A stretch of 64,000 nucleotides of DNA. It comes from Escherichia phage vB_Eco_mar004NP2. The notes beneath the pieces were generated by a model that saw only the letters and a list, made by a program, of their open reading frames with translations, was not told where the DNA came from and ran no database searches. Where the stretch lies: the sequence record OR896837.1. One strand, 5' to 3'. A program made the position numbers and the translations under genes. Positions 6,200 through 63,850 of the stretch are shown piece by piece. The number at the start of each line of letters is the position of its first letter. Within the stretch, counting starts at the first letter, position 1.

Positions 6200-8989
6200 G
6201 TGTTTTCAATCCTACAAGGTCATGCAGGATTTCATCGCGATTTAGCCACAGGCAATTGGCGAGAAGTTAAAGCAGAAGATTATCTTTTTGCTAAAAGATT
6301 TTCCTCAAAGCATCCTGAAGGTAAACCAGCTTCAATGCCCTTCAAGTTTGATGTAATTGACGAAGTTGATCCTCAAACCCTAGTAGAAATGCTTCCTCTT
6401 ATGAGACGTTTAACGTCTGACCCTCATATCGTTGCGGTACGAGGTCGATGTCTTGCACCTAAAAATAATGTGCGGCGTAAGAATGGCAACTTTAATGTAT
6501 CTAACCCAAGTCATATAATTGCAATGGATGTGGATGGTATTGTAGATACAGGTGGTTGTAACAAGTTTGATCTTGTTGGCATGGCTCGACATATTATTAG
6601 AATGTTAAATAGTATTAGTGAGGATATGTTTCCTCTTGATGCAGGGTTTATCGCTCATGCATCGTCTTCGGCTGGGCTAAAACCAGGTATCCGAATGCAC
6701 TTAATACTAGAATCTAATGTTAAAGTAACTCAGGGTCAAATCAAATTCTTATTTACATCTATCAACGAAAGTAGTAGACAAAAGTATGGCTTTGATATTG
6801 CCGACTTAGCTTATTACTCTTCCGTACAGCTCCATTATTTTGCAGATCCGTTATTTACCGATGGTATAGTAGATCCGTTTAAAGAGGAGGGTGCTTCACG
6901 TCTGGTATTTGTTAAGGGTTCTAAAGTAAATTTACCCAATAATCTGGTTGACTATGAAACAACTAGAGGTGAGTTTAAAGAAGAGTTCTACTCTTTACTA
7001 GACCAAATTAAGGGTAAAAAAGCTGCCTCTGATAAAGTAGAAGAAACCATCAGCGAACTAGAAGAAGCTGAGGATGGAGTGTATCTACGTATTATTCCTA
7101 AACTCTATCACAGGGCTTTAGAGGATGGTGTTGATTTTGCATGGCTAGAAAAAGAAATCCGTCCAGCCTTATCAGAATATATTGCAACTAAAGATAATAG
7201 TCGTAATATTCAAGACTACTTTAATAATGGTCGTAAACAGGCTCTAAAAGCATTTGTTAATAATTCTAAACGTTATATACCGGATGTTTTAAAAGGTATT
7301 CCACTCAAAAAGCTAGAAACTAACTCTTTAGAGACTGATAACTTCTTGAAATTAAATACTGTGCCACCAGAAGGTTATATGACTTTTGTAAAAGCGAGTC
7401 TAGGTACAGGTAAAACTACAGCGGTTGTGCGTTGGTTAGATTCAGGAGTTATTAAAGGTAATTTCTTAGCAATTACCAATACTCGAGCACTGGTATCTTC
7501 CAATGCTAAGAAATTTAGTGCAGGACAATATGATAAGTCTGTAGATATGCTTAATTTTAAGCGTGGTGCTATTGACCGTATGTCCACAACTATTCACTCT
7601 TTGCATAAGTTCAAGAGTTTTATTGGTCAAATTGATGCAATCTTTATCGATGAATGTGATGCAGTAATGAACGACCTATTATTCGCCCCGGTTGTTAAAC
7701 AACGTCGTGAATGTATTCAGGTTCTTCGGGATATTCTTGCAACTGCAAAAATCATTATATTATCAGATGGTGATATTAGTGCAGAAACAATTGAAGCATA
7801 TGGTTCTTTGATCGAGTTTGATAAACCGGTTGCATTTTATAATCATCACCGTAAAATGCTGTCAAAAGCTCATGCTTATGAGTTTCCTGATGAATCCAGT
7901 ATTTGGGTTGCACTTCAGACTTCTCTAGAGATGGGTGAGAAATCTATTCTGGTATCTGATTGTGGCCCTGATGAGCTGAATGAGAAGGGTATGGCATTAC
8001 GTCGTAATACGGGTGCGTTAGTTAAGGAAATCCACTCAAATTCTACGTCTGATGTGGATATTAGACGTATTCTGGATTACACAACTAATGAGCTGATTGA
8101 TCAACAAATTGATTGCTTATTATGTAGTCCATCCGTAACGAGTGGAGTTGACTTCAACTATTTTGATAACGTATTCGTTATTACTAGAACCAGTAACCAA
8201 GCGCCAAACATGCGTTTTCAAGCAATCAGGCGCGACCGTGGTGCTCAGAATATCTATTATTTTATTGATAAATCTACGAGTGGATTCTCTGCAGGTTCTG
8301 AACAATATAATATTGATGAGGGCTGGCTGGAGTTAGCACAGCAATTATATGCACGTCGTAGAGAGCTGGAATCTAGAAATTATACTAGTACTTTACGTTA
8401 TTACTTGCTTGATCAGGGTGCAACTATTGATATTTTCAGCGAAAGCTGGGGAACTATTGAAGGTGCAGGGAAAGAATATATGGAAGAGCGAATCAAAGCT
8501 ATTCTACATTCAACTCCTGATTATTGTGCTCCACGTCATGCGGATGCGTATGAAGCTAAACTACTTCTTGTTCGCTATTATCATCTTGAGTCTATTAAAG
8601 ATGTAACAGTTGAGCATGTTGAACAATATATCAAGGATAAACCTAATGATCGAGCGGCATTCTTCCATAAAATGCACGAGATGTTTTGGGAAGATATTAA
8701 GAAGTGTTCAAACGTCACTATCAAACCATTCATAGAAGCTCTGAAAGGTAAGAAGAAGGACTTCTTCCTTAAAACAGGTCAGAGTGCTAACCCAAAATAT
8801 GCTAGAATGTATCTTGGTATGATGGGTATTGGTAAGGATATGAACACTGAAAATATTGTAGACTGGTACAGAACCTATTGTAAAATCGAGTGTATGCCAA
8901 TTCCTTATAAGTTTATGACTGATGAGGAGAAACATATGCATGATGAAGCAATGGCAGAGCTAGGTGCTAGAAATGACAGTGAAGAATAA
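6200..8989 (+). CDS. Large SF2 helicase-like protein (possibly replication-origin-binding / primase-helicase-like)
   Basis: ORF track 6122-8989 (TTG); start placed at GTG 6200 after aggag with 7-nt spacing (uncertain); Walker A SLGTGKTT, Walker B FIDECD; N-terminal IIAMDVDG acidic motif. Confidence 0.65.
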   Translation: MFSILQGHAGFHRDLATGNWREVKAEDYLFAKRFSSKHPEGKPASMPFKFDVIDEVDPQTLVEMLPLMRRLTSDPHIVAVRGRCLAPKNNVRRKNGNFNVSNPSHIIAMDVDGIVDTGGCNKFDLVGMARHIIRMLNSISEDMFPLDAGFIAHASSSAGLKPGIRMHLILESNVKVTQGQIKFLFTSINESSRQKYGFDIADLAYYSSVQLHYFADPLFTDGIVDPFKEEGASRLVFVKGSKVNLPNNLVDYETTRGEFKEEFYSLLDQIKGKKAASDKVEETISELEEAEDGVYLRIIPKLYHRALEDGVDFAWLEKEIRPALSEYIATKDNSRNIQDYFNNGRKQALKAFVNNSKRYIPDVLKGIPLKKLETNSLETDNFLKLNTVPPEGYMTFVKASLGTGKTTAVVRWLDSGVIKGNFLAITNTRALVSSNAKKFSAGQYDKSVDMLNFKRGAIDRMSTTIHSLHKFKSFIGQIDAIFIDECDAVMNDLLFAPVVKQRRECIQVLRDILATAKIIILSDGDISAETIEAYGSLIEFDKPVAFYNHHRKMLSKAHAYEFPDESSIWVALQTSLEMGEKSILVSDCGPDELNEKGMALRRNTGALVKEIHSNSTSDVDIRRILDYTTNELIDQQIDCLLCSPSVTSGVDFNYFDNVFVITRTSNQAPNMRFQAIRRDRGAQNIYYFIDKSTSGFSAGSEQYNIDEGWLELAQQLYARRRELESRNYTSTLRYYLLDQGATIDIFSESWGTIEGAGKEYMEERIKAILHSTPDYCAPRHADAYEAKLLLVRYYHLESIKDVTVEHVEQYIKDKPNDRAAFFHKMHEMFWEDIKKCSNVTIKPFIEALKGKKKDFFLKTGQSANPKYARMYLGMMGIGKDMNTENIVDWYRTYCKIECMPIPYKFMTDEEKHMHDEAMAELGARNDSEE

Positions 8990-9274: not shown

Positions 9275-9979
9275 ATGGCTGGTTCTCGTAGAAAGAAACA
9301 TATCCATGAAATCCCGGATGAAGTCTTTAAAAAGGTTATAGAGCATCTGGAGAACGGTGGTACTAAGAAAGCAGCATGTGAAATGCTCGGCGTATCATCT
9401 AATCCAACTATGGAAAGAATGATTGAAGAATGGCAAGACCGCCAGATTCAAGTTGCCGAAATGAAGAAAAAGAAACGTGGCACACTCATTGAAGGCATTG
9501 AGTTAGCTAACGTTATTGAGCAGTATTTATCTGGTGATTCTTTTGAAGAAATTGCCGATCGTAATTACCGCTCTGTAGCAATGGTTAAATCTGTTCTGGA
9601 ACGATATGGTGCTCTACTTCGTTTGAACGATATTGTAGATCCATTGAATCCTCCAATTATTCCTGATGATGCTGTAGCAGAAGAATTTGCAGTTGGTGAG
9701 CTTGTTTGGGTTCCTGGATACCAGTGTATCGGTGAAATCAAAAAAGCAATGGATAATCCTGTTGGTTGTTACCGTGTATGGCTTCTATCGGAAGGCAAAC
9801 AACAGAACGTCCATTATATGAATTACGAGTTGGCCTCTGTTAAGCATCTAGAAAAGTTAGGGGTTGACGTAAAATCTCTAGGGTACAAGTGGACTCGTGA
9901 AGAAATTATTACGTTGATTAACGAAGCTGTTAAGGCCGCCCTGAAGCTTGATAAAGAAAAAGGAAAACGCCGTGAGTAA
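9275..9979 (+). CDS. Putative DNA-binding protein (N-terminal HTH-like)
   Basis: ORF track; strong SD gagaggag; N-terminal GGTKKAACEMLGVSSNPTMERMIEEW resembles an HTH. Confidence 0.55.
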   Translation: MAGSRRKKHIHEIPDEVFKKVIEHLENGGTKKAACEMLGVSSNPTMERMIEEWQDRQIQVAEMKKKKRGTLIEGIELANVIEQYLSGDSFEEIADRNYRSVAMVKSVLERYGALLRLNDIVDPLNPPIIPDDAVAEEFAVGELVWVPGYQCIGEIKKAMDNPVGCYRVWLLSEGKQQNVHYMNYELASVKHLEKLGVDVKSLGYKWTREEIITLINEAVKAALKLDKEKGKRRE

Positions 9980-10235
9980 GCTAACAGATTTGCTTAAAGA
10001 TGGAGATGTAAAATATCTCCAGCGGGATAGCTGGGGTAATTGGGACGCTCGTACTTATTACTCTACTATTATAAAAGTAGATGTTGATAATAATGATATT
10101 GTCGAGTTTACCTGGTGGCTCAATGAAGGTGGGTATACCAAGTTCGATATAAAAGACGCAACATGGAAAACCTCCTCCCTAACCCTAGAAGAAGCTCTGG
10201 CGGATGATTGGGAGATCGTTGAGCTAGATGTGTAG
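9972..10235 (+). CDS. Hypothetical protein
   Basis: ORF track 9948-10235 (TTG); GTG 9972 preceded by aaggaaaa is the preferred start; uncertain. Confidence 0.4.
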   Translation: MSKLTDLLKDGDVKYLQRDSWGNWDARTYYSTIIKVDVDNNDIVEFTWWLNEGGYTKFDIKDATWKTSSLTLEEALADDWEIVELDV

Positions 10236-29292: not shown

Positions 29293-29571
29293 TTATGCCC
29301 ATACTCTAAGAGGCTGTTCTAGCTGAACTATAAAAGGCTCGAAGGATTCGTAAGTAAAGGATTCATCAAGAATCCTTACATTAATATAATACCCTTCATT
29401 ACGGATGCATCTAGGTTCCTCATCACCTAGCGGAGAGATTTCAGTATAAGTATATCCAATTTCGTCAAGCATTATTTGGTTTTGCAAATTTTCATTAGTA
29501 TCCCACTCTATTTTTAAGAGAAAATCTTTATATGCTGATTTATCCGTGAATTTTAGGATTATATCTCTCAT
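29293..29571 (-). CDS. Hypothetical protein between the two tail-fibre genes
   Basis: ORF track; ATGA overlap with upstream gene. Confidence 0.5.
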   Translation of the reverse strand: MRDIILKFTDKSAYKDFLLKIEWDTNENLQNQIMLDEIGYTYTEISPLGDEEPRCIRNEGYYINVRILDESFTYESFEPFIVQLEQPLRVWA

Positions 29572-53217: not shown

Positions 53218-54975
53218 TTAGGTAAGGCGTTGAACTGTTACTCTTAATCTCGGTAGGAAAACTGCACTACCTAAACTTACGTGCATAACTACCCCTAACT
53301 CTACATTTCCATTCCCCAGATTTTTAGCAGTATATATAAAACTATTTCTACTTAGGGCATTGTTAGGTGTGTACCTAAAAGCAGATGTAGTATGAAAAGG
53401 TACTAAATACCCTACTGGTAATGTTAAAATCTGGTGGAATATTGCATCTCCATTACTATAGCTATATGCTCTTCTTCCTTGCACTTGAAACACACCGTTA
53501 TTCCATGTATTAGCAGGAACACCTGCACAGTTAAGGTTACCTGATATAACTTCAGTGGTAAGAATTACTGTAGCATTGCCACCCGGTATACCTAGCCCAA
53601 TAGTTGATAAACCAACGTATCTATCCCCTGTTCCCGGGTAGCTGGGAGTAATATCATCCCCCATGTAAGAGCTACCTACATTTCCACCAAAAAGTCGTAA
53701 TGGAACTGCTGATGGTCCCCAAACAACCCCGTGTTCATTACCGATAGTATTATCCCTAGAGTTTACATACCATTGCTTACCCGCTCCGAATTTGTAAATG
53801 CTAATTTGGGATTTAGCTCCACCATAGTCTACAGGAGACCATAATCCTCCATTACTAGACCCTACAAGTTCACACCTTGCCGTGGTATCCCCAAAAACCC
53901 CGGTATACGCTGCGTTATTTCCTATATACTCCATATCAGGACGGTAACCTAGGTTACCAAAAGCATTCTGATTTATAAATTTATACCCGGTATTAGGGAG
54001 ACTTACCCCTTTAATTATGAAATTAGAAGGAGATATAAGAATATCAGAACCAGTAAAGGGGTTGCCTGAAATACTCATTCCACCATTAGAGTACCTTAAA
54101 TTAAGAACATACCAAATAACCTTAGTAGGGGTTATATTATACCAATCCTGTAGTATTGTAGAGTCACCCGACTGGTTAGCTAAATTAGTAGTAGATCCCC
54201 TACAAACAAATCTGTTCCCACCGTCGTGGTACATAGTATTTACATTACCTGGGAGCCCTTGTCTAACCCCACCGTATCCACGTATATTAGAGTTGCAAAC
54301 ATAAAACCAATCATGCCCTCTATGTGCTGCTCCTAGAGGCGACATCCATCCAGGATCCCAATAGTACGGGTTATTCCCATCTACAGGTACTGTGCTACTA
54401 TTAGTAGGAAAACCTAATTGTGCAAAGGCTTCTGCAACAGTAACACCTACAGGAGCTCCCGCACCAGGCCTAACTATCCCATGGTAGGTACTATGTAACG
54501 TAGTACCACCTGTACCACTCCTAGAGATAGATTCTTCGTGCCATATCGATGGGTTATAATTATAAGTTCCAGATGCTAGACTATTACCAAATGCAAATCC
54601 ACTGGTTTGAGAAACACTAGCAAAAGATCTAAAGGGGTCTGCTTGAGTGGCAACTATAGTTTGACCAACTTTACTCTGAGTACCATTAAGAAAAGCTCTG
54701 TGAGTACCATTAATCTCAATAGCAGTTAGTATAACTCTACCAGGATCATTAGATTTAATATTTACTATATCAGGAGGCATCTGACATACGAAAAACCCAT
54801 TCCCGGCATCACCTAATCCTGCCTCATAAGTACCCTCAACTAGAACAAATGGCATATCACTATGAAAAATACTATTATTACTTGGACTATAGTGACGATT
54901 AATGTCACCCCCAGATTCAGTATTTAAAGATAGTACGGTCTTACCATCGCTATACTTTCCAGCGAAAAAACCCAT
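53218..54975 (-). CDS. Receptor-binding tail protein (T5 pb5/Oad-like)
   Basis: 585 aa, divergent from the adjacent lipoprotein gene as oad/llp are in T5. Confidence 0.6.
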
Positions 54976-56387: not shown

Positions 56388-57122
56388 TTAGGCAACTTTT
56401 AATTTCTCAATATATTGTTGAGGACTGCAACTATATTCTGCGCGTTCTTCCTCGGTCATACCTTCCCAGCATAATTTTAAACGGTCAGCTAGGAATTGAT
56501 AATCATTATCATCGTCGAGAGATTCATCAATAAAGGTTTCACCTATCAATGCCACGCCGATTGATAGAATATCATTAACGGCTTGTGCGTCCAGCGTTTT
56601 AAATCCGTATGACGCTGCCGCTGATAGCACGCCTTTATGATCATCAATCATTGTAAAATCAGCGTTAGGATATAACTGTTTAAATAATTCAAAATAATAA
56701 GATTTATATACTGCGTCTTTGCTGTGGTATATTTCGCTAACCTTATCAGCTTTAAAATATTTGTGTAGTGTATCGCGGGAAAATACGCGGATATTACTAT
56801 TACCACGACCGCGCAACCCTTGTTTACGCAAGAAATAATAGTCCGACTTACTCATCAGTCGAGCGGTGCAAATAATGTTTAAAGTATTTGCGTCATTCAT
56901 GCACTGGCGCATATATTCAACCAATGGCAATAAAGTATCTTGCATTATTAAATGGTGTTTACACGCTTCATTTTTATACTTATTTAAATCTAAATTGCCC
57001 TCGCTATCAAAGCAGGGTGCTATACGATGGAAAGAATTAATGATAGTGCCGTCTAAATCCCAAATCATGACGCGGGAAATATGCGGGAAGCTGCGGGAAA
57101 GATTCATGATAGCTTTATTCAT
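56388..57122 (-). CDS. dmp: HAD-family 5'-deoxyribonucleotidase (T5 Dmp-like)
   Basis: 244 aa; HAD motif I WDLDGTI near N-terminus; sits in a pre-early-type module with A1/A2-like genes. Confidence 0.7.
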   Translation of the reverse strand: MNKAIMNLSRSFPHISRVMIWDLDGTIINSFHRIAPCFDSEGNLDLNKYKNEACKHHLIMQDTLLPLVEYMRQCMNDANTLNIICTARLMSKSDYYFLRKQGLRGRGNSNIRVFSRDTLHKYFKADKVSEIYHSKDAVYKSYYFELFKQLYPNADFTMIDDHKGVLSAAASYGFKTLDAQAVNDILSIGVALIGETFIDESLDDDNDYQFLADRLKLCWEGMTEEERAEYSCSPQQYIEKLKVA

Positions 57123-57201: not shown

Positions 57202-57594
57202 TTAAAGACCATAAGCCAACGCATCGGCGATAAAACTAACATCCTCACCTGATACATGGGAACGAATCCCCGCACAAGTATATACTTTTGCAGAAATCAA
57301 TTGATCATCAAGGCAAGCGGGGCAAGGCGCGACAACTGCAAAGGCTAGACCGGATTTTACTGCGTCGATGATAATCGTTTCTTGTTTCGCCGTGTCAACA
57401 TAAACGCCTTTTGCTTTAATATGGCTAGTTAGTTTGCCTTGCATATATGCAAATGTTGTAACCTGCAAAGCGTCATTGAAATCTAGCAATTCATCAATAA
57501 CGTGCCCCGCCTCGACGTGGTAACGCTCACCATTAGAATAAACCAGAACAATTGAGGATTGAGCGCGGTCAAATGGAATATTTTGCTTTTTCAT
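57202..57594 (-). CDS. Hypothetical pre-early-module protein (130 aa)
   Basis: ORF track; PCPAC motif; conserved leader upstream. Confidence 0.5.
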   Translation of the reverse strand: MKKQNIPFDRAQSSIVLVYSNGERYHVEAGHVIDELLDFNDALQVTTFAYMQGKLTSHIKAKGVYVDTAKQETIIIDAVKSGLAFAVVAPCPACLDDQLISAKVYTCAGIRSHVSGEDVSFIADALAYGL

Positions 57595-57632
57595 GTTTAT
57601 AAAACTCCAATTAGTTTAATAATGGATTTAAT

Positions 57633-57890
57633 TTATTTGATAATAATCTGCATCTGGTACGGTGTTAATTCACCGTTTACGGGTAAATTATTATCGCTTA
57701 GCCACTCATAAAAAGCACCATCATCGTCAAAGGGTACAATATCATTATCACTATAATCGACCGTAATAATCCCATCAGTATTAGTTTTGGCGGCTAGAAT
57801 AGGCCCGAAGCTGTAAACTTTATCGGATTCCATTTCATCCGGTGAAATAAATGCTTTTTCGTCTAGCGTTTTGGGTAATGTAACTTTCAT
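57633..57890 (-). CDS. Small acidic protein (85 aa; candidate DNA-mimic / host-takeover factor)
   Basis: 16 Asp/Glu versus 6 Lys and no Arg by my count; location in the pre-early-type module. Confidence 0.5.
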   Translation of the reverse strand: MKVTLPKTLDEKAFISPDEMESDKVYSFGPILAAKTNTDGIITVDYSDNDIVPFDDDGAFYEWLSDNNLPVNGELTPYQMQIIIK

Positions 57891-57946
57891 TCTAATTTAG
57901 CTCCTGTAATAGCGGCTATATTTCAAGCCGCTAGGGGATTAATTAT

Positions 57947-59611
57947 TTACGCAAAGAATTTACCGTTTTTAAAGTCAATCAAAGTGCGCTGACCGTTTGC
58001 ATAGGTAATTAAATGCGTTTGCGTCCAGCTTGACGCGCCAACGTTGTAACCCATGTCCAGACTACCAGCTACGCCAGCGGTATACACGCCGCCATAAATG
58101 CTGGCGGTGTGAGTGTGTCCGGTGTTTAATTTGCCCAATTTCTTAAATTGTTTAGGATTGCCACGGCTGCCGTTAATGCCGTTGTGACCGTGTACGCCGC
58201 ATTCAATGCCTACAATCTTGAAAGATTGGTCAGTAGTTAGAAAAATGGCGTTAAACTCACAACCTGCAACCTTGCGCAGCGCATAATCTAGCACGTTGAA
58301 AGTATCGTCTTTTTCTGCAATAGCTCCATAAATCGCGGCATTTAGGCGGTGATATAGTTCCGCGTTTGCTGGATCGTCTTTAATGTTAGCATTACGATCA
58401 TCAAGCCAACGGGATAGCGCCAAATCGTGATTAGATTCAACAATGATTGTTTGCGAGAAATCACGTTCCATTGATTCCAGCACGCGCCCCGTATCGATAA
58501 GATCATCTAATACCTTATCACGTCCGGCGGCGTATTGTTTTGCTAGGAATACACCGGATGCGCGGTTGTGATGGTTGCGTGATGTAAAATCATGCACGTC
58601 ATGGATAAACTGATATTTAGGCTTGAGAATATCAAGCAAGCTATTTTCGCCAGCCCATGACGCAACGGCACAATCATCATCTAGTTTTTCTGCGTGAATA
58701 TCGCCGTATTGCAAGCCTAAAACATGCCCCGATGTCTCATAGCATCCGGCAGGAGTAGCGCACACATTCAGATCATAAAATACCCCGCTTTCGTCCATCG
58801 TTTCGAGCTGGCGTACAAAAAATTCCCCGTCCTCGTCGAACTCGACAATTAGCGCACCGAAGTTATGCAGCGCCTCGGCCTTTTGTCCTGCTTTCTGCTG
58901 AATGTAGTTTTTGAGCGTTGCCGTTCCGGTTGAGTACATACGGCGCACTACTTCACCTTTTAAAGCTGGCACGCTTTCAGCGGTAATTTTAGCGTGACCA
59001 ATTGCCAGACCTTCCAGATTAAGCGCCGTTGCAGTTTCAGCGAATCCAGAAAGCGGATAATCTGCGGTTGGCAAAACGTTAATTTCAGCCATGAAAGCAA
59101 AACGGCGGTTATTTAAAAACACGTTTTTATTGCAGATATATTTGTCAAATGCGGAATCATATTTTATTCCTTCTGCACCCTCGCCATTTTGAAAACCGTT
59201 TTTGTTATAAATAAACTTGCTAACCAGCAAATCAGCGCCGATATATTTAGCAAATTGCTCCAATGAGGCTAAAAAGTTTTTATGCGGGAAAGTATTATTC
59301 TGAATCGACGTAATAATAAAGCGTTTACCCTGCTTTACTTCCCATTGCTCAACCGTGCTAGAAACAATCCCCGCCGCTTCTGGACGCTCATCGTTTTTAA
59401 TGGCTTTTGCTACTTTCGCCGCTTTCGGTTTAGCTGGTTTATTTGCTTCCAACCAGTCGCAGATAGCGGTCGAGTGTTTTGTTGTATCGTAGACCGCTTT
59501 TGATATATCGTCGCAGACCTCCAGTTTAGTAGCGCGCAGACGTTTACCATAGAAATTAAAGTCAGCGGCCATTTTCAGGATAACGGTTTGTTTTTCTGTG
59601 GAAATAATCAT
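57947..59611 (-). CDS. A1: A1-like pre-early protein (metallophosphoesterase-type nuclease-like)
   Basis: 554 aa; calcineurin-like motifs GDIHAEKLDD, VESNHD, GHTHTA; size close to T5 A1 from memory. Confidence 0.7.
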   Translation of the reverse strand: MIISTEKQTVILKMAADFNFYGKRLRATKLEVCDDISKAVYDTTKHSTAICDWLEANKPAKPKAAKVAKAIKNDERPEAAGIVSSTVEQWEVKQGKRFIITSIQNNTFPHKNFLASLEQFAKYIGADLLVSKFIYNKNGFQNGEGAEGIKYDSAFDKYICNKNVFLNNRRFAFMAEINVLPTADYPLSGFAETATALNLEGLAIGHAKITAESVPALKGEVVRRMYSTGTATLKNYIQQKAGQKAEALHNFGALIVEFDEDGEFFVRQLETMDESGVFYDLNVCATPAGCYETSGHVLGLQYGDIHAEKLDDDCAVASWAGENSLLDILKPKYQFIHDVHDFTSRNHHNRASGVFLAKQYAAGRDKVLDDLIDTGRVLESMERDFSQTIIVESNHDLALSRWLDDRNANIKDDPANAELYHRLNAAIYGAIAEKDDTFNVLDYALRKVAGCEFNAIFLTTDQSFKIVGIECGVHGHNGINGSRGNPKQFKKLGKLNTGHTHTASIYGGVYTAGVAGSLDMGYNVGASSWTQTHLITYANGQRTLIDFKNGKFFA

Positions 59612-59708: not shown

Positions 59709-59906
59709 TTAATTTAAAGGCATAAGGCTAGAACTAACACCACAAGCAATGGCGGCAATAAAACAAATCAGACCTAAACGCTTTGCCAATTTAGACTTAC
59801 GTTTAAAATAATATGAGTCTAAATCATTTTGAAAATAAGCGAATAATAACGAGGCCGCCATAATAAATAAGCCTAGAATTAACGATTCAGTGGGGTAAAA
59901 GATCAT
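59709..59906 (-). CDS. Small two-TM membrane protein
   Basis: ORF track; two hydrophobic helices separated by a basic loop (KRKSKLAKR). Confidence 0.45.
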   Translation of the reverse strand: MIFYPTESLILGLFIMAASLLFAYFQNDLDSYYFKRKSKLAKRLGLICFIAAIACGVSSSLMPLN

Positions 59907-59962: not shown

Positions 59963-60370
59963 TTATTCACCTGCGGCCTGTTTTACTTCATCGGCAACGC
60001 CTAACAGTTGCGCTACGGCGTCCAGCGTTTCAAGTTTTGCACTTTCCAGACTTGCCAGACCGTCGGCGTCTTTAATAATGCCGGAATCAATAGCATGTTT
60101 AGCGATAACGCGTACATAGTGAGCTTTGCGGATTGAGCTACCGCCGCCAACTTTGCGAGGCTTATCGCTTTTCTGATACGCTTTTGCGCTGGTCAATTTT
60201 GATCGAACAGACACGGGAGAAGACGCGCCCACTGCTTTTGCAATCTCTTTTAAACCGTCGCTATTTGCGAAATCTAAACCGTTTTCATTAATTAACTGCT
60301 GGTACATAGAAACAGCTTTTTGAGTGTTTTCTTCATTCCAAGCAAATTTTGCGGTTTTAACGTTAGTCAT
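59963..60370 (-). CDS. A2: A2-like pre-early DNA-binding protein (tentative)
   Basis: 135 aa following the A1-like gene; size and position only. Confidence 0.45.
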   Translation of the reverse strand: MTNVKTAKFAWNEENTQKAVSMYQQLINENGLDFANSDGLKEIAKAVGASSPVSVRSKLTSAKAYQKSDKPRKVGGGSSIRKAHYVRVIAKHAIDSGIIKDADGLASLESAKLETLDAVAQLLGVADEVKQAAGE

Positions 60371-60917: not shown

Positions 60918-61206
60918 GGGTACATCTTAAAGCCTATCGGCTAGGGTGTCAAACTGTTTTTTGCAGTTTTTTATGATTTTCTTTCAGGTCGATCATAATA
61001 TTACGCCAGATCATTTCTAAACCCTGCTGGCGGCCTTTCTTGTACTGAGCAAATCGGTATTTTACGGATTGCTGGGCTATTGTCAACAATTTTTTAGTAG
61101 TACCATCTAATTTTTTAGCTGGTTTACCAGTGATCAATAAAGTTTGTTTCATATCTGCGATTCCTTATAATATAAGTTTACCGCCGATAGACTTTAAGAT
61201 GTACCC
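60918..61206. repeat. 24-bp inverted repeat pair (23/24 match) bracketing a small basic-protein gene
   Basis: gggtacatcttaaagcctatcggc (60918-60941) versus reverse complement of gccgatagactttaagatgtaccc (61183-61206). Confidence 0.85.
60949..61152 (-). CDS. Small basic protein (67 aa, Lys-rich)
   Basis: ORF track; 16 Lys/Arg versus 4 Asp/Glu by my count; SD aagga 9 nt upstream; enclosed by the inverted repeats. Confidence 0.45.
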   Translation of the reverse strand: MKQTLLITGKPAKKLDGTTKKLLTIAQQSVKYRFAQYKKGRQQGLEMIWRNIMIDLKENHKKLQKTV

Positions 61207-63355: not shown

Positions 63356-63850
63356 ATGGCTGAGGAAAAATATGGGTTTTCGCTAGGGGAAGTGAGCAAG
63401 GCTAAACATGATATGATCATTTTGGTCGATTGTCATACTGGCTATTGCGGTGAAGGGAATACTGAGGAATATTTTGTTCCTGCTGGTACGGATCTCGACG
63501 CTTTCGCTCATGAAATGGCTGTTGATAATGCTTCTCGTTTTGGTAGCGATGGCTATGAAGATGAGGAAACGGGCGAATGGTATGAGAATGATAATGTATA
63601 TGCAAGCCTTTATCATTATCAATTAAGTAAATCCGGCACATATGTAAACGGCGGCGATCCTATTAATTCCGTCATGAAATTAATTATTAAATATGGTGGC
63701 GCTGAAATAATCGGAAATAAAGCGGTAATATACGCAAACCGACTAAAACAGCTTGTTTATATCCCTGATAGTACCCGATGGGATGAATACGCTGTTTTGC
63801 ATGACGAATTGAAACGATGTTTCAATATTGAAACATTACAAGTAGTTTAA
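63356..63850 (+). CDS. Hypothetical protein (164 aa)
   Basis: ORF track; strong SD taggagg; followed by a terminator-like hairpin. Confidence 0.55.
   Translation: MAEEKYGFSLGEVSKAKHDMIILVDCHTGYCGEGNTEEYFVPAGTDLDAFAHEMAVDNASRFGSDGYEDEETGEWYENDNVYASLYHYQLSKSGTYVNGGDPINSVMKLIIKYGGAEIIGNKAVIYANRLKQLVYIPDSTRWDEYAVLHDELKRCFNIETLQVV

What the first reader, a model, noticed from the sequence alone, without database searches (positions are those of the whole stretch)
57633..57890. Small, strongly acidic protein in the pre-early module: candidate DNA mimic
The 85-aa product has 16 Asp/Glu against 6 Lys and no Arg by my count, including a DDDG cluster, and is encoded between the A1-like gene and dmp. 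Small acidic pre-early proteins in other phages (Ocr-type, Ugi-type) act as DNA mimics that inhibit restriction enzymes or DNA glycosylases. This is an inference from composition and location only.
Basis: inference. Interest (0 to 1): 0.5.

Follow-up and report, generated by a model that had tools for sequence, protein, structure and literature searches.

The report
Swappable acidic pre-early phage protein
This is a real, very acidic 85-residue protein made in the first minutes of infection by a T5-like phage; it sits in a swappable gene slot next to the host-DNA-destroying nuclease A1, its function is unknown, and acting as a DNA-like decoy is plausible but unproven.

Summary
Window 57633-57890 (-) encodes an 85-aa protein with 16 D/E, 6 K and no R (pI 4.05), the most acidic of 70 ORFs in the window. 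It has a good RBS and lies between A1 and a 130-aa gene upstream of dmp, in the leftward pre-early operon of a Tequintavirus. It is a real gene: dN/dS is 0.06 within its clade.

The new finding is the slot itself. The position after A1 is an exchangeable cassette holding zero to two small proteins, all acidic but hypervariable in sequence. One contig has 98%-identical A1 and a 26%-identical slot protein.

An Ugi-type role is unlikely, because the lineage keeps an Ung-dependent nickase. A role as the general T5 restriction-insensitivity factor is also unlikely, because slot type does not track that phenotype. A narrower acidic-decoy or anti-defence role remains the best guess (about 0.35).

The parts
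57633..57890 (-). 85-aa acidic protein gene (phrog_8297; positional equivalent and remote relative of T5 gene T5.003)
   Evidence: ORF and composition. phrog_8297 full length, E 2.9e-49. dN/dS 0.059. AlphaFold pLDDT 87.7: strands 25-28, 31-35, 41-45, 50-54, helix 57-66, strand 73-75.
57901..57905 (-). Ribosome-binding site AGGAG, 10 nt upstream of the ATG
   Evidence: Read directly from the sequence.
57910..57933 (-). 8-bp stem-loop (UAGCGGCU/AGCCGCUA) in the A1-ORF spacer, with no U-tract; function unknown
   Evidence: RNA fold of 57880-57960(-): -18.2 kcal/mol, z = -2.44. Not called as a terminator. The spacer is conserved even where the coding sequence is replaced.
57630..57941 (-). Approximate extent of the insertion/deletion unit (spacer plus ORF) that is absent in 'empty-slot' relatives. 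Where a different small acidic gene is present, only about 57638-57886 is replaced.
   Evidence: blastn breakpoints against L017 and L022 (empty), L039 (T5), L058 (TrudiGerster), L064 and L009 (HNH).
57947..59611 (-). A1 (DNA transfer / host-DNA degradation protein), immediately upstream in the same operon; context
   Evidence: phrog_1745, E 3e-244. 95% identical to T5 A1.
57202..57594 (-). 130-aa T5.002-like gene, immediately downstream; context
   Evidence: phrog_4576, E 1.5e-81. 94% identical to T5.002.
60924..61086 (-). Two strong sigma-70-like promoter matches (61086-61059 at 11/12 and 60952-60924 at 10/12), likely driving the leftward pre-early operon that includes the ORF
   Evidence: Consensus scan. 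Their position corresponds to T5 promoters P-H22 and P-D/E20 annotated in NC_005859. No terminator-like site lies between A1 and the ORF.

Best explanation
The gene encodes an accessory pre-early protein. It is made within minutes of first-step DNA transfer, as part of the A2-A1-dmp operon. It is one occupant of an exchangeable cassette slot directly downstream of A1. In different T5-like phages that slot holds none, one or two small (80-96 aa) proteins. These are very divergent in sequence, but every one examined is strongly acidic.

The most likely mode of action is that of a stoichiometric acidic decoy. The compact beta-meander/helix domain would present a conserved negative surface made of the beta3-beta4 hairpin (D45, D48, D50), the loop at residues 55-57, and one face of the helix (D/E59, E62, D66). 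That surface would occupy the nucleic-acid-binding site of a host protein, most plausibly a strain-specific defence or DNA-processing factor. This would neutralise the factor before the rest of the phage genome enters. Different cassette variants would be tuned to different host targets.

Shown: gene reality, timing and operon context, conserved charge, new fold, cassette behaviour, and lack of co-evolution with A1.

Inferred: that it binds a host protein, that binding is electrostatic or DNA-mimic-like, and that the outcome is anti-defence. The target is unknown.
For: 1. Charge is conserved while sequence is not. All 27 family members have net -7 to -10.5. Remote relatives and unrelated co-occupants of the slot in T5, TrudiGerster, Klebsiella Sugarlandvirus, My1, Eos, Vibrio phi3, L063 and L064 all have pI 4.05-4.7.
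2. Ten acidic columns are 59-100% acidic across the family. They fall in the beta3-beta4 hairpin, the pre-helix loop and the helix.
3. Pre-early operon position with no intervening terminator. The equivalent slot gene of Bas33 is transcribed with the pre-early set at 1143 TPM (supplement of PMC13250531).
4. Accessory, cassette-like behaviour. The family is in 182 of roughly 440 close A1-bearing records. Replacement or deletion is precise, with conserved flanks. Tandem paralogs occur in Eos, My1 and KookSpook.
5. It evolves about 7 times faster than A1 between clades (dN 0.37 against 0.05) yet is under strong purifying selection within a clade.
6. The T5.003 equivalent is non-toxic and dispensable in laboratory E. 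coli (PMC8201957; bioRxiv 10.64898/2026.04.02.716235). That is expected of a conditional anti-defence factor.
7. Its size and charge density equal those of T5 Ptr1 and Ptr2 (-0.135, -0.120). These are acidic proteins that trigger PARIS, the defence that senses Ocr (PMC11464382).
Against: There is no direct evidence of any binding partner.

The fold matches no solved DNA mimic or any other solved structure, so the mimicry idea rests on composition alone.

An 85-aa compact domain is small compared with Ocr or ArdA dimers, which mimic over 20 bp.

In T5, PARIS escape mutations mapped only to Ptr1 and Ptr2, not to ORF003 (PMC11464382). OLD escapers of Bas34, which carries an 88%-identical copy, mapped to a1 and a homing nuclease (bioRxiv 10.64898/2026.07.10.737580).

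T5 is sensitive to PUA-Cal-HAD unless a heterologous DNA mimic is supplied (PMC12871103). That argues against a promiscuous mimic in T5 itself.

Acidity is common among small phage proteins and may simply aid solubility.
Confidence: 0.35

Rival explanations
1. It is a host-takeover or regulatory protein that works by a specific protein-protein contact unrelated to nucleic-acid mimicry. For example, it might bind a host enzyme, RNA polymerase subunit, protease or membrane component. The negative charge would be incidental or serve solubility.
For: Strong purifying selection on many non-acidic positions: V25, Y26, F54, W63, L64, G73 and T76 are invariant or nearly so. The fold is compact and globular rather than elongated. 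There is no resemblance to known mimics. Many small acidic phage early proteins act this way (established knowledge, for example T4 AsiA and T7 Gp0.4).
Against: It does not explain why every occupant of the slot, including ones with no detectable sequence relation, keeps the same high negative charge. The invariant hydrophobic residues are most simply core residues of the fold.
Confidence: 0.3
2. It is a partner or modulator of a phage pre-early protein. The obvious candidate is an immunity-like inhibitor or regulator of the toxic A1 nuclease encoded immediately upstream, as in colicin-Im or barnase-barstar pairs. It would help spare phage DNA.
For: A small acidic gene follows A1 in Markadamsvirinae, Sugarlandvirus, Myunavirus and a Vibrio T5-like phage. 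A1 is toxic and sufficient for chromosome degradation, and how T5 DNA escapes it is an open question (bioRxiv 10.64898/2026.04.02.716235). The size and pI resemble Im proteins and barstar (own knowledge).
Against: The slot is empty in many phages whose A1 is 93-95% identical. A T5 mutant keeping only A1, A2, hdi and 009 is viable, and A1 alone accounts for DNA degradation (abstract). There is no co-evolution: A1 is 92-93% identical where the slot protein is 43-55%, and A1 is 98% identical where the slot protein is 26%. No fold match to Im proteins or barstar. Conserved gene order is normal for phage operons and need not mean interaction.
Confidence: 0.12
3. It is the long-sought pre-early factor that makes T5-type phages insensitive to type I, II and III restriction, acting as an Ocr-type general anti-restriction protein.
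For: Such a pre-early factor is inferred but unidentified (PMC10644984; bioRxiv 10.1101/866236). The protein is acidic and pre-early.
Against: The family is absent from more than half of close relatives. T5 itself has only a 19%-identical remote relative. T5 (resistant) and TrudiGerster (sensitive) share the T5.003 type, and Epseptimaviruses (the sensitive genus) carry 54-55% variants of the 85-aa type (PMC10644984). Ocr-type mimics do not block type II enzymes (established knowledge). Davison argued that the factor should be conserved in all T5-like phages. There is no Ocr or ArdA homology or fold.
Confidence: 0.05
4. It is a Ugi-type inhibitor of uracil-DNA glycosylase.
For: Its size (85 aa) and pI resemble Ugi (84 aa; own knowledge).
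Against: There is no fold match to Ugi, p56 or SAUGI complexes in the PDB. The strand and helix order differs from Ugi (own knowledge of the Ugi fold). The 99.8%-identical phage keeps the T5.014/T5.015-type genes in the same pre-early region. T5.015 needs active Ung, and Ugi abolishes its effect (PMC8201957). T5 DNA contains no uracil, and the phage encodes a dUTPase (same paper).
Confidence: 0.03
5. It is a functionless or purely selfish cassette with no benefit to the phage.
For: It is dispensable and often absent. The same slot can hold a homing endonuclease gene.
Against: dN/dS is 0.06, with hundreds of synonymous changes. Fold and charge are conserved down to about 25% identity. It has a good RBS and sits in an expressed operon.
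Confidence: 0.05

Closest known systems
T5 gene T5.003 / ORF003 (hypothetical pre-early protein, 92 aa)
   Same: Same slot directly after A1. Similar size and acidity (pI 4.7). Shared N-terminal K-[IV]-x-L-P, G-x-V-Y and [DE]-N-[DN]-[IL]-P motifs. hhalign probability 82-89%. T5.003-type proteins of EPS7 and Klebsiella phage Anoxic match the model in BFVD (TM 0.60-0.80).
   Different: Only 19% identical. The two types can co-occur in tandem (KookSpook), so they are paralogous cassette variants and not orthologs. The experimental data (non-toxic, dispensable) were obtained on T5.003, not on this family.
Ocr (T7 gp0.3) and ArdA, DNA-mimic anti-restriction proteins
   Same: Very acidic, among the first phage proteins made, non-enzymatic and accessory.
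   Different: No sequence match and no fold match. Ocr and ArdA are elongated dimers mimicking over 20 bp of bent B-DNA (own knowledge), whereas this is a compact 85-aa beta-meander plus helix. The distribution does not fit the T5 restriction phenotype (see the rival explanations).
Ugi (PBS1/PBS2) and p56 (phi29), Ung-inhibiting DNA mimics
   Same: Size (84 aa for Ugi) and acidity; small single-domain proteins.
   Different: Different topology and no structural hit. The biological context argues the other way, because the lineage exploits active Ung through T5.015.
T5 Ptr1 (ORF094) and Ptr2 (ORF103), acidic triggers of the PARIS defence
   Same: Small proteins from the same phage group with the same charge density (-0.135 and -0.120, against -0.118) and unknown primary function (PMC11464382).
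   Different: No sequence relation (hmmsearch E above 0.1, hhalign probability below 1%). They are early genes, not pre-early. PARIS escape mutations did not map to ORF003.
T4 Arn (92-aa DNA mimic that inhibits McrBC and binds H-NS)
   Same: Size, acidity and accessory status. Natural variants differ in potency against a given defence (PMC12871103), much like the cassette variation seen here.
   Different: No sequence or fold similarity detected. Arn is not linked to a nuclease operon.

Membership tests
phrog_8297 (PHROGs family, unknown function) | Full-length match to the family profile | tested here: met
   E 2.9e-49, residues 1-85 on profile positions 1-85 of 85.
T5.003-type pre-early proteins | Detectable homology to T5.003 and the same genomic slot | tested here: inconclusive
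   Same slot. 19% identity. hhalign probability 82-94% and hmmsearch E 1e-7 to 1e-8 in a tiny database. BFVD fold hits to T5.003-type proteins at TM 0.60-0.80. This supports a superfamily-level relation only.
Ocr (T7 gp0.3) family | Sequence homology to Ocr (Pfam model) | tested here: not met
   No Pfam family at E up to 1. No PDB sequence hit below E 0.1.
Ocr (T7 gp0.3) family | Elongated, mainly helical dimer whose carboxylates trace the phosphate backbone of bent B-DNA | tested here: not met
Ocr (T7 gp0.3) family | Inhibits type I R-M / BREX by binding the methyltransferase core | not testable with these tools
   Needs binding or plating assays.
ArdA anti-restriction family | Sequence homology and a three-domain elongated fold | tested here: not met
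   No Pfam or NCBIfam hit. No structural hit. At 85 aa it is about half the length of ArdA.
Ugi-type Ung inhibitors | Ugi fold (five-stranded antiparallel sheet with two helices) docking into the Ung DNA groove | tested here: not met
Ugi-type Ung inhibitors | The phage benefits from Ung inhibition (uracil-containing DNA or an equivalent need) | tested here: not met
   The lineage carries the Ung-dependent AP nickase genes, and Ugi cancels T5.015 activity.
DNA-mimic proteins (functional class with no common fold) | High density of surface carboxylates, conserved in relatives | tested here: met
   Net -10.5 over 85 aa. Conserved in 27 of 27 members, and ten acidic columns are at least 59% acidic.
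DNA-mimic proteins (functional class with no common fold) | Carboxylate spacing that reproduces DNA phosphate geometry, and competition with DNA for a target | not testable with these tools
   The model coordinates are not exposed and no binding assay is possible.
Nuclease immunity/inhibitor proteins (colicin Im, barstar) | Co-occurrence and co-evolution with the cognate nuclease | tested here: not met
   The slot is empty next to 93-95%-identical A1. A 98%-identical A1 sits next to a 26%-identical slot protein. Between genera, A1 is 92-93% identical and the slot protein 43-55%.
Nuclease immunity/inhibitor proteins (colicin Im, barstar) | Im four-helix fold or barstar alpha/beta fold | tested here: not met
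PARIS triggers Ptr1/Ptr2 of T5 | Sequence homology to Ptr1 or Ptr2 | tested here: not met
   hmmsearch E 0.13-0.21 and hhalign probability below 1%.

The most novel reading that the evidence does not exclude
The position immediately downstream of A1 is the T5 family's anti-defence hot-spot. It would be a recombination-exchangeable cassette carrying a private superfamily of small acidic decoy proteins with a previously unseen beta-meander/helix fold. Each variant would be tuned to a different host DNA-binding defence or repair factor and deployed before the bulk of the genome enters the cell. This 85-aa protein would then be a new structural class of DNA or nucleic-acid mimic with a yet-unknown target.
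Probability: 0.2. Interest if true: 0.65.

Novelty: new member of a known kind. Interest (0 to 1): 0.35.

Why it matters
T5-type phages are unusually resistant to nuclease-based defences. They are used as therapeutic and biocontrol agents, yet most of their 17 pre-early genes have no known function.

This analysis shows that the gene is real and that its fold is private to the family. It also shows that the gene sits in a precisely exchangeable slot filled with always-acidic but sequence-hypervariable proteins. That makes the slot a concrete, cheap target for anti-defence screens: swap or delete the cassette and plate on wild hosts. If a target is found, it would add a new fold to the set of acidic decoy or DNA-mimic inhibitors.

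It matters equally that the analysis steers effort away from two tempting but poorly supported ideas: Ung inhibition, and the general T5 restriction-insensitivity factor.

Tried and rejected
**Sequence and profile searches**
- Pfam, NCBIfam and PADLOC scans, and a PDB profile search, found nothing meaningful. The best PDB hits (E 0.14-6) were NHL repeats of TRIM proteins and asparaginase beta-chains.
- The exhaustive profile search returned three long proteins with several matched stretches (P0034, P0039, P0040). The two whose sequences I read (P0034, P0039) are acid-rich repeat proteins, and I judged them compositional matches.

**Fold searches**
- The NHL and beta-propeller-blade resemblance of residues 34-60 also appears as weak Foldseek hits (BamB, WD40, Lis1; E above 1). 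I treated it as generic four-strand-meander similarity, not homology.
- Model coordinates are not exposed, so the DNA-like surface-charge pattern could not be checked.
- I did not attempt co-folding with A1 or host proteins, or a homodimer test.

**Literature leads that proved irrelevant**
- Rad, the retron anti-defence of T5-like phages, is a 189-aa TOPRIM protein in the tRNA region.
- JSS1_004 is a T7 gp0.7-type kinase.
- The OLD and French Phage Network papers say nothing about this gene.
- Davison's 2015 review is not held.
- The main text of the CRISPRi-ART paper gives no data on this gene.

**Other**
- I could not confirm that Bas33's slot gene (96 aa) belongs to the same family. Its RNA-seq signal is cited only as evidence that the slot is transcribed.

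Full report
**1. What is there**

Window 57633-57890 on the - strand is an 85-codon ORF with an ATG start and an AGGAG ribosome-binding site 10 nt upstream. A DDDG cluster sits at residues 55-58.

The neighbourhood is the leftward pre-early (first-step-transfer) operon of a T5-like phage:
- A2 at 59963-60370.
- A 65-aa ORF at 59709-59906, matching T5.005 (annotated as a membrane protein).
- A1 at 57947-59611.
- The ORF under study.
- A 130-aa T5.002-like gene at 57202-57594.
- dmp at 56388-57122.

Over this region the window is 99.8% identical to Tequintavirus mar004NP2 and Salmonella phage SPLA5b. Strong sigma-70-type promoter matches lie upstream of the operon at 61086 and 60952. No terminator-like site separates A1 from the ORF. 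Only an 8-bp hairpin without a U-tract lies in the 56-nt spacer.

**2. Is it real and more than chance?**

Yes. Among 11 phages of its clade the gene shows 170 non-synonymous against 606 synonymous pairwise differences. That gives dN/dS = 0.059, comparable to A1 (0.048) and dmp (0.068). It is the most acidic of 70 non-overlapping ORFs in the window (net charge per residue -0.118, z = -2.4).

The acidity is a family property. All 27 members collected have net charge -7 to -10.5 and pI 4.05-4.72. The DDDG cluster is not conserved. The conserved acidic columns are 19, 21, 45, 48, 50, 56, 59, 62, 66 and 74.

**3. Family and relatives**

The protein matches phrog_8297 (unknown function) over its full length. 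It matches nothing in Pfam, NCBIfam, PADLOC or PDB sequences.

A word-indexed search of 5.8 billion proteins, seeded with divergent copies, found 26 clusters. An exhaustive HMM search of 1.84 billion representatives found only 18 hits. Three of those are long proteins with several matched stretches. The two I read (P0034, P0039) are acid-rich repeat proteins that look like compositional matches. The family is therefore tiny and, as far as context could be checked, confined to T5-like phages.

T5's own gene in this slot, T5.003, is not an ortholog. It is 92 aa and 19% identical. Profile comparison gives 82-89% probability. T5.003-type proteins from EPS7 and Klebsiella phage Anoxic match the predicted structure in BFVD at TM 0.60-0.80. 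I treat them as one superfamily with deeply diverged cassette variants. The published data on T5.003 therefore transfer to this protein only loosely. Those data are that it is not toxic in E. coli (PMC8201957), dispensable in the laboratory, and present in under 15% of Demerecviridae (bioRxiv 10.64898/2026.04.02.716235).

**4. Structure**

AlphaFold2 with the 27-sequence alignment gives a confident model (mean pLDDT 87.7, pTM 0.75). The N-terminal arm (residues 1-13) has no regular secondary structure, and confidence is low for about the first ten residues. A four-stranded meander follows (25-28, 31-35, 41-45, 50-54), then a helix (57-66) and a fifth strand (73-75).

From the sequence and predicted secondary structure, the conserved carboxylates sit in three places: the beta3-beta4 hairpin (D45, D48, D50), the pre-helix loop (55-57), and positions 59, 62 and 66 of the helix, which share one helical face. 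This last point is an inference. I could not map the surface because the coordinates are not exposed.

**5. The slot is an exchangeable cassette**

This was the main new finding. In 51 A1-containing viral contigs and several GenBank phages, the position after A1 takes one of these forms:
- the 85-aa family;
- the 92-aa T5.003 type;
- two small acidic genes in tandem (Eos, My1, KookSpook, L063, L064);
- a 169-aa HNH_3 homing endonuclease;
- nothing at all.

Every small occupant is acidic (pI 4.05-4.7), including ones with no detectable sequence relation.

Nucleotide similarity between phages with different occupants runs from A1 through the spacer to the start codon and resumes at the stop codon. 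In empty-slot phages the unit at about 57630-57941 is cleanly absent.

The family occurs in 182 phage records and the T5.003 type in 33, of which 12 are Klebsiella Sugarlandviruses. About 440 records have A1 at 90% identity or more. So more than half of close relatives have neither type.

Between the window phage and Epseptimaviruses, A1 is 92-93% identical, dmp 80-91% and A2 75-85%, but this protein only 43-55%. Its dN is 0.37 against 0.05 for A1. One metagenomic contig has an A1 C-terminus 98% identical to the window's, next to a slot protein only 26% identical.

**6. What this says about function**

*Ugi-type Ung inhibitor.* This is unlikely. There is no fold match. The 99.8%-identical phage keeps the T5.014/T5.015-type genes in the same pre-early region. 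T5.015 needs active Ung to nick host DNA, and Ugi abolishes its effect.

*General restriction-insensitivity factor of T5.* This has been an open question since 1979 (PMC10644984; bioRxiv 10.1101/866236). This gene is an unlikely answer, for four reasons:
- It is absent from most relatives.
- T5 (resistant) and TrudiGerster (a sensitive Epseptimavirus) share the T5.003 type.
- Bas34 (resistant) and, from its match, IrisVonRoten carry the 85-aa type, while Epseptimaviruses carry a 54-55% variant.
- Ocr-type mimics do not block type II enzymes (own knowledge), and Davison expected the factor to be conserved in all T5-like phages.

*A1 immunity or modulator.* The position next to a toxic nuclease is suggestive, and how T5 DNA escapes A1 is unknown. 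Three things argue against an essential partnership:
- empty slots next to near-identical A1;
- the viability of a T5 mutant keeping only A1, A2, hdi and 009;
- the complete lack of co-evolution.

*What remains.* It is an accessory, conditionally useful pre-early protein whose one invariant property across extreme sequence divergence is a dense negative charge on a small stable fold. That pattern is what one expects of an electrostatic decoy for a nucleic-acid-binding host protein, with cassette variants matched to different targets. T5's Ptr1 and Ptr2 have the same charge density and are sensed by PARIS, the defence that detects Ocr (PMC11464382).

Weak negatives against a broad-spectrum mimic:
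- PARIS escapers did not map to ORF003 (PMC11464382).
- OLD escapers of Bas34 did not map to this gene.
- T5 needs a heterologous mimic to overcome PUA-Cal-HAD.

I put the decoy/anti-defence reading at about 0.35. A specific protein-protein function without mimicry gets about 0.30, and the other rivals are lower.

**7. Novelty and score**

The gene is already annotated as 'hypothetical protein' in hundreds of phage records, and no paper in the library assigns it a function. If the decoy reading is right, it is a new member, with a new fold, of a well-known functional kind. The cassette behaviour and the always-acidic rule for the slot are worth a targeted experiment. Nothing here is strongly surprising to a phage biologist, though, and the link to the long-standing T5 restriction question is weakened rather than strengthened. 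Interest: 0.35.

Noticed in passing
L009:5739-6248 (also L025, L026/L027, L029): In some close relatives (A1 93-98% identical) the slot after A1 holds a 169-aa basic protein with an HNH_3 domain (Pfam E 7.5e-6). That is a homing-endonuclease gene sitting where the acidic gene would be.
   Followed up: partly
L064:973-1528; L063:346-893; L002:3501-4003; L059:4165-5176; KookSpook PP925842.1 1267-1811: Tandem pairs of small acidic genes follow A1 in several phages. In L064, A1 is 98% identical to the window's but the slot protein is only 26% identical, and a second 96-aa acidic ORF follows it. KookSpook carries the 85-aa type and the T5.003 type side by side.
   Followed up: partly
window 9972-10229 (+): tblastn finds a stretch 37% identical to T5 Ptr2 (ORF103 = T5.112), one of the two acidic proteins that trigger the PARIS defence. 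No Ptr1 homologue was found in the window.
   Followed up: no
window 29293-29571 (-) and 63356-63850 (+): Two other strongly acidic ORFs: 92 aa at pI 4.31, and 164 aa at pI 4.54. The second lies in the rightward pre-early arm after the T5.011/T5.012-like genes. It corresponds to gp090 of mar004NP2. T5's annotated right arm shows no gene of this size at the corresponding position.
   Followed up: no
window 57910-57933 (-): An 8-bp GC-rich hairpin without a U-tract lies between the A1 stop and the RBS of the ORF (z = -2.4). The spacer that contains it stays conserved even when the downstream coding sequence is swapped, so it could be a processing or stability element or a recombination landmark.
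   Followed up: partly
window 53218-54975 (-) next to 56388-57122: A 585-aa ORF, which I take without testing to be a receptor-binding (pb5/Hrs-like) gene, lies about 1.4 kb from dmp. If so, the window would span the junction of the right genome end and the left terminal repeat. The near-identical GenBank records (about 107 kb) are shorter than T5 (121.7 kb), consistent with a collapsed repeat or a permuted assembly.
   Followed up: no
L001 (NC_005859) 8086-8644; L062 3034-3246: RefSeq places the product name 'endonuclease nicking abasic sites generated by host Ung' on the 213-nt gene T5.014, whereas the paper names T5.015 (345 nt). Gene numbering also differs between T5 records: ORF094 of AY587007 is T5.100 of NC_005859, and ORF103 is T5.112.
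   Followed up: partly
residues 34-60 of the protein (window about 57711-57791): The central segment (TNTDGIITVDYSDNDIVPFDDDG) gives weak matches to NHL repeats of TRIM2/3 (PDB profile search, E 0.14-6). The model gives weak Foldseek hits to single beta-propeller blades (BamB, WD40, Lis1). This is probably generic four-strand-meander similarity. A homo-oligomeric ring was not tested.
   Followed up: no
L058 (NC_105114.1, TrudiGerster): The locus tags read bas27_, while PMC10644984 calls TrudiGerster Bas26. This is a labelling inconsistency to keep in mind when matching phenotypes to genomes.
   Followed up: no
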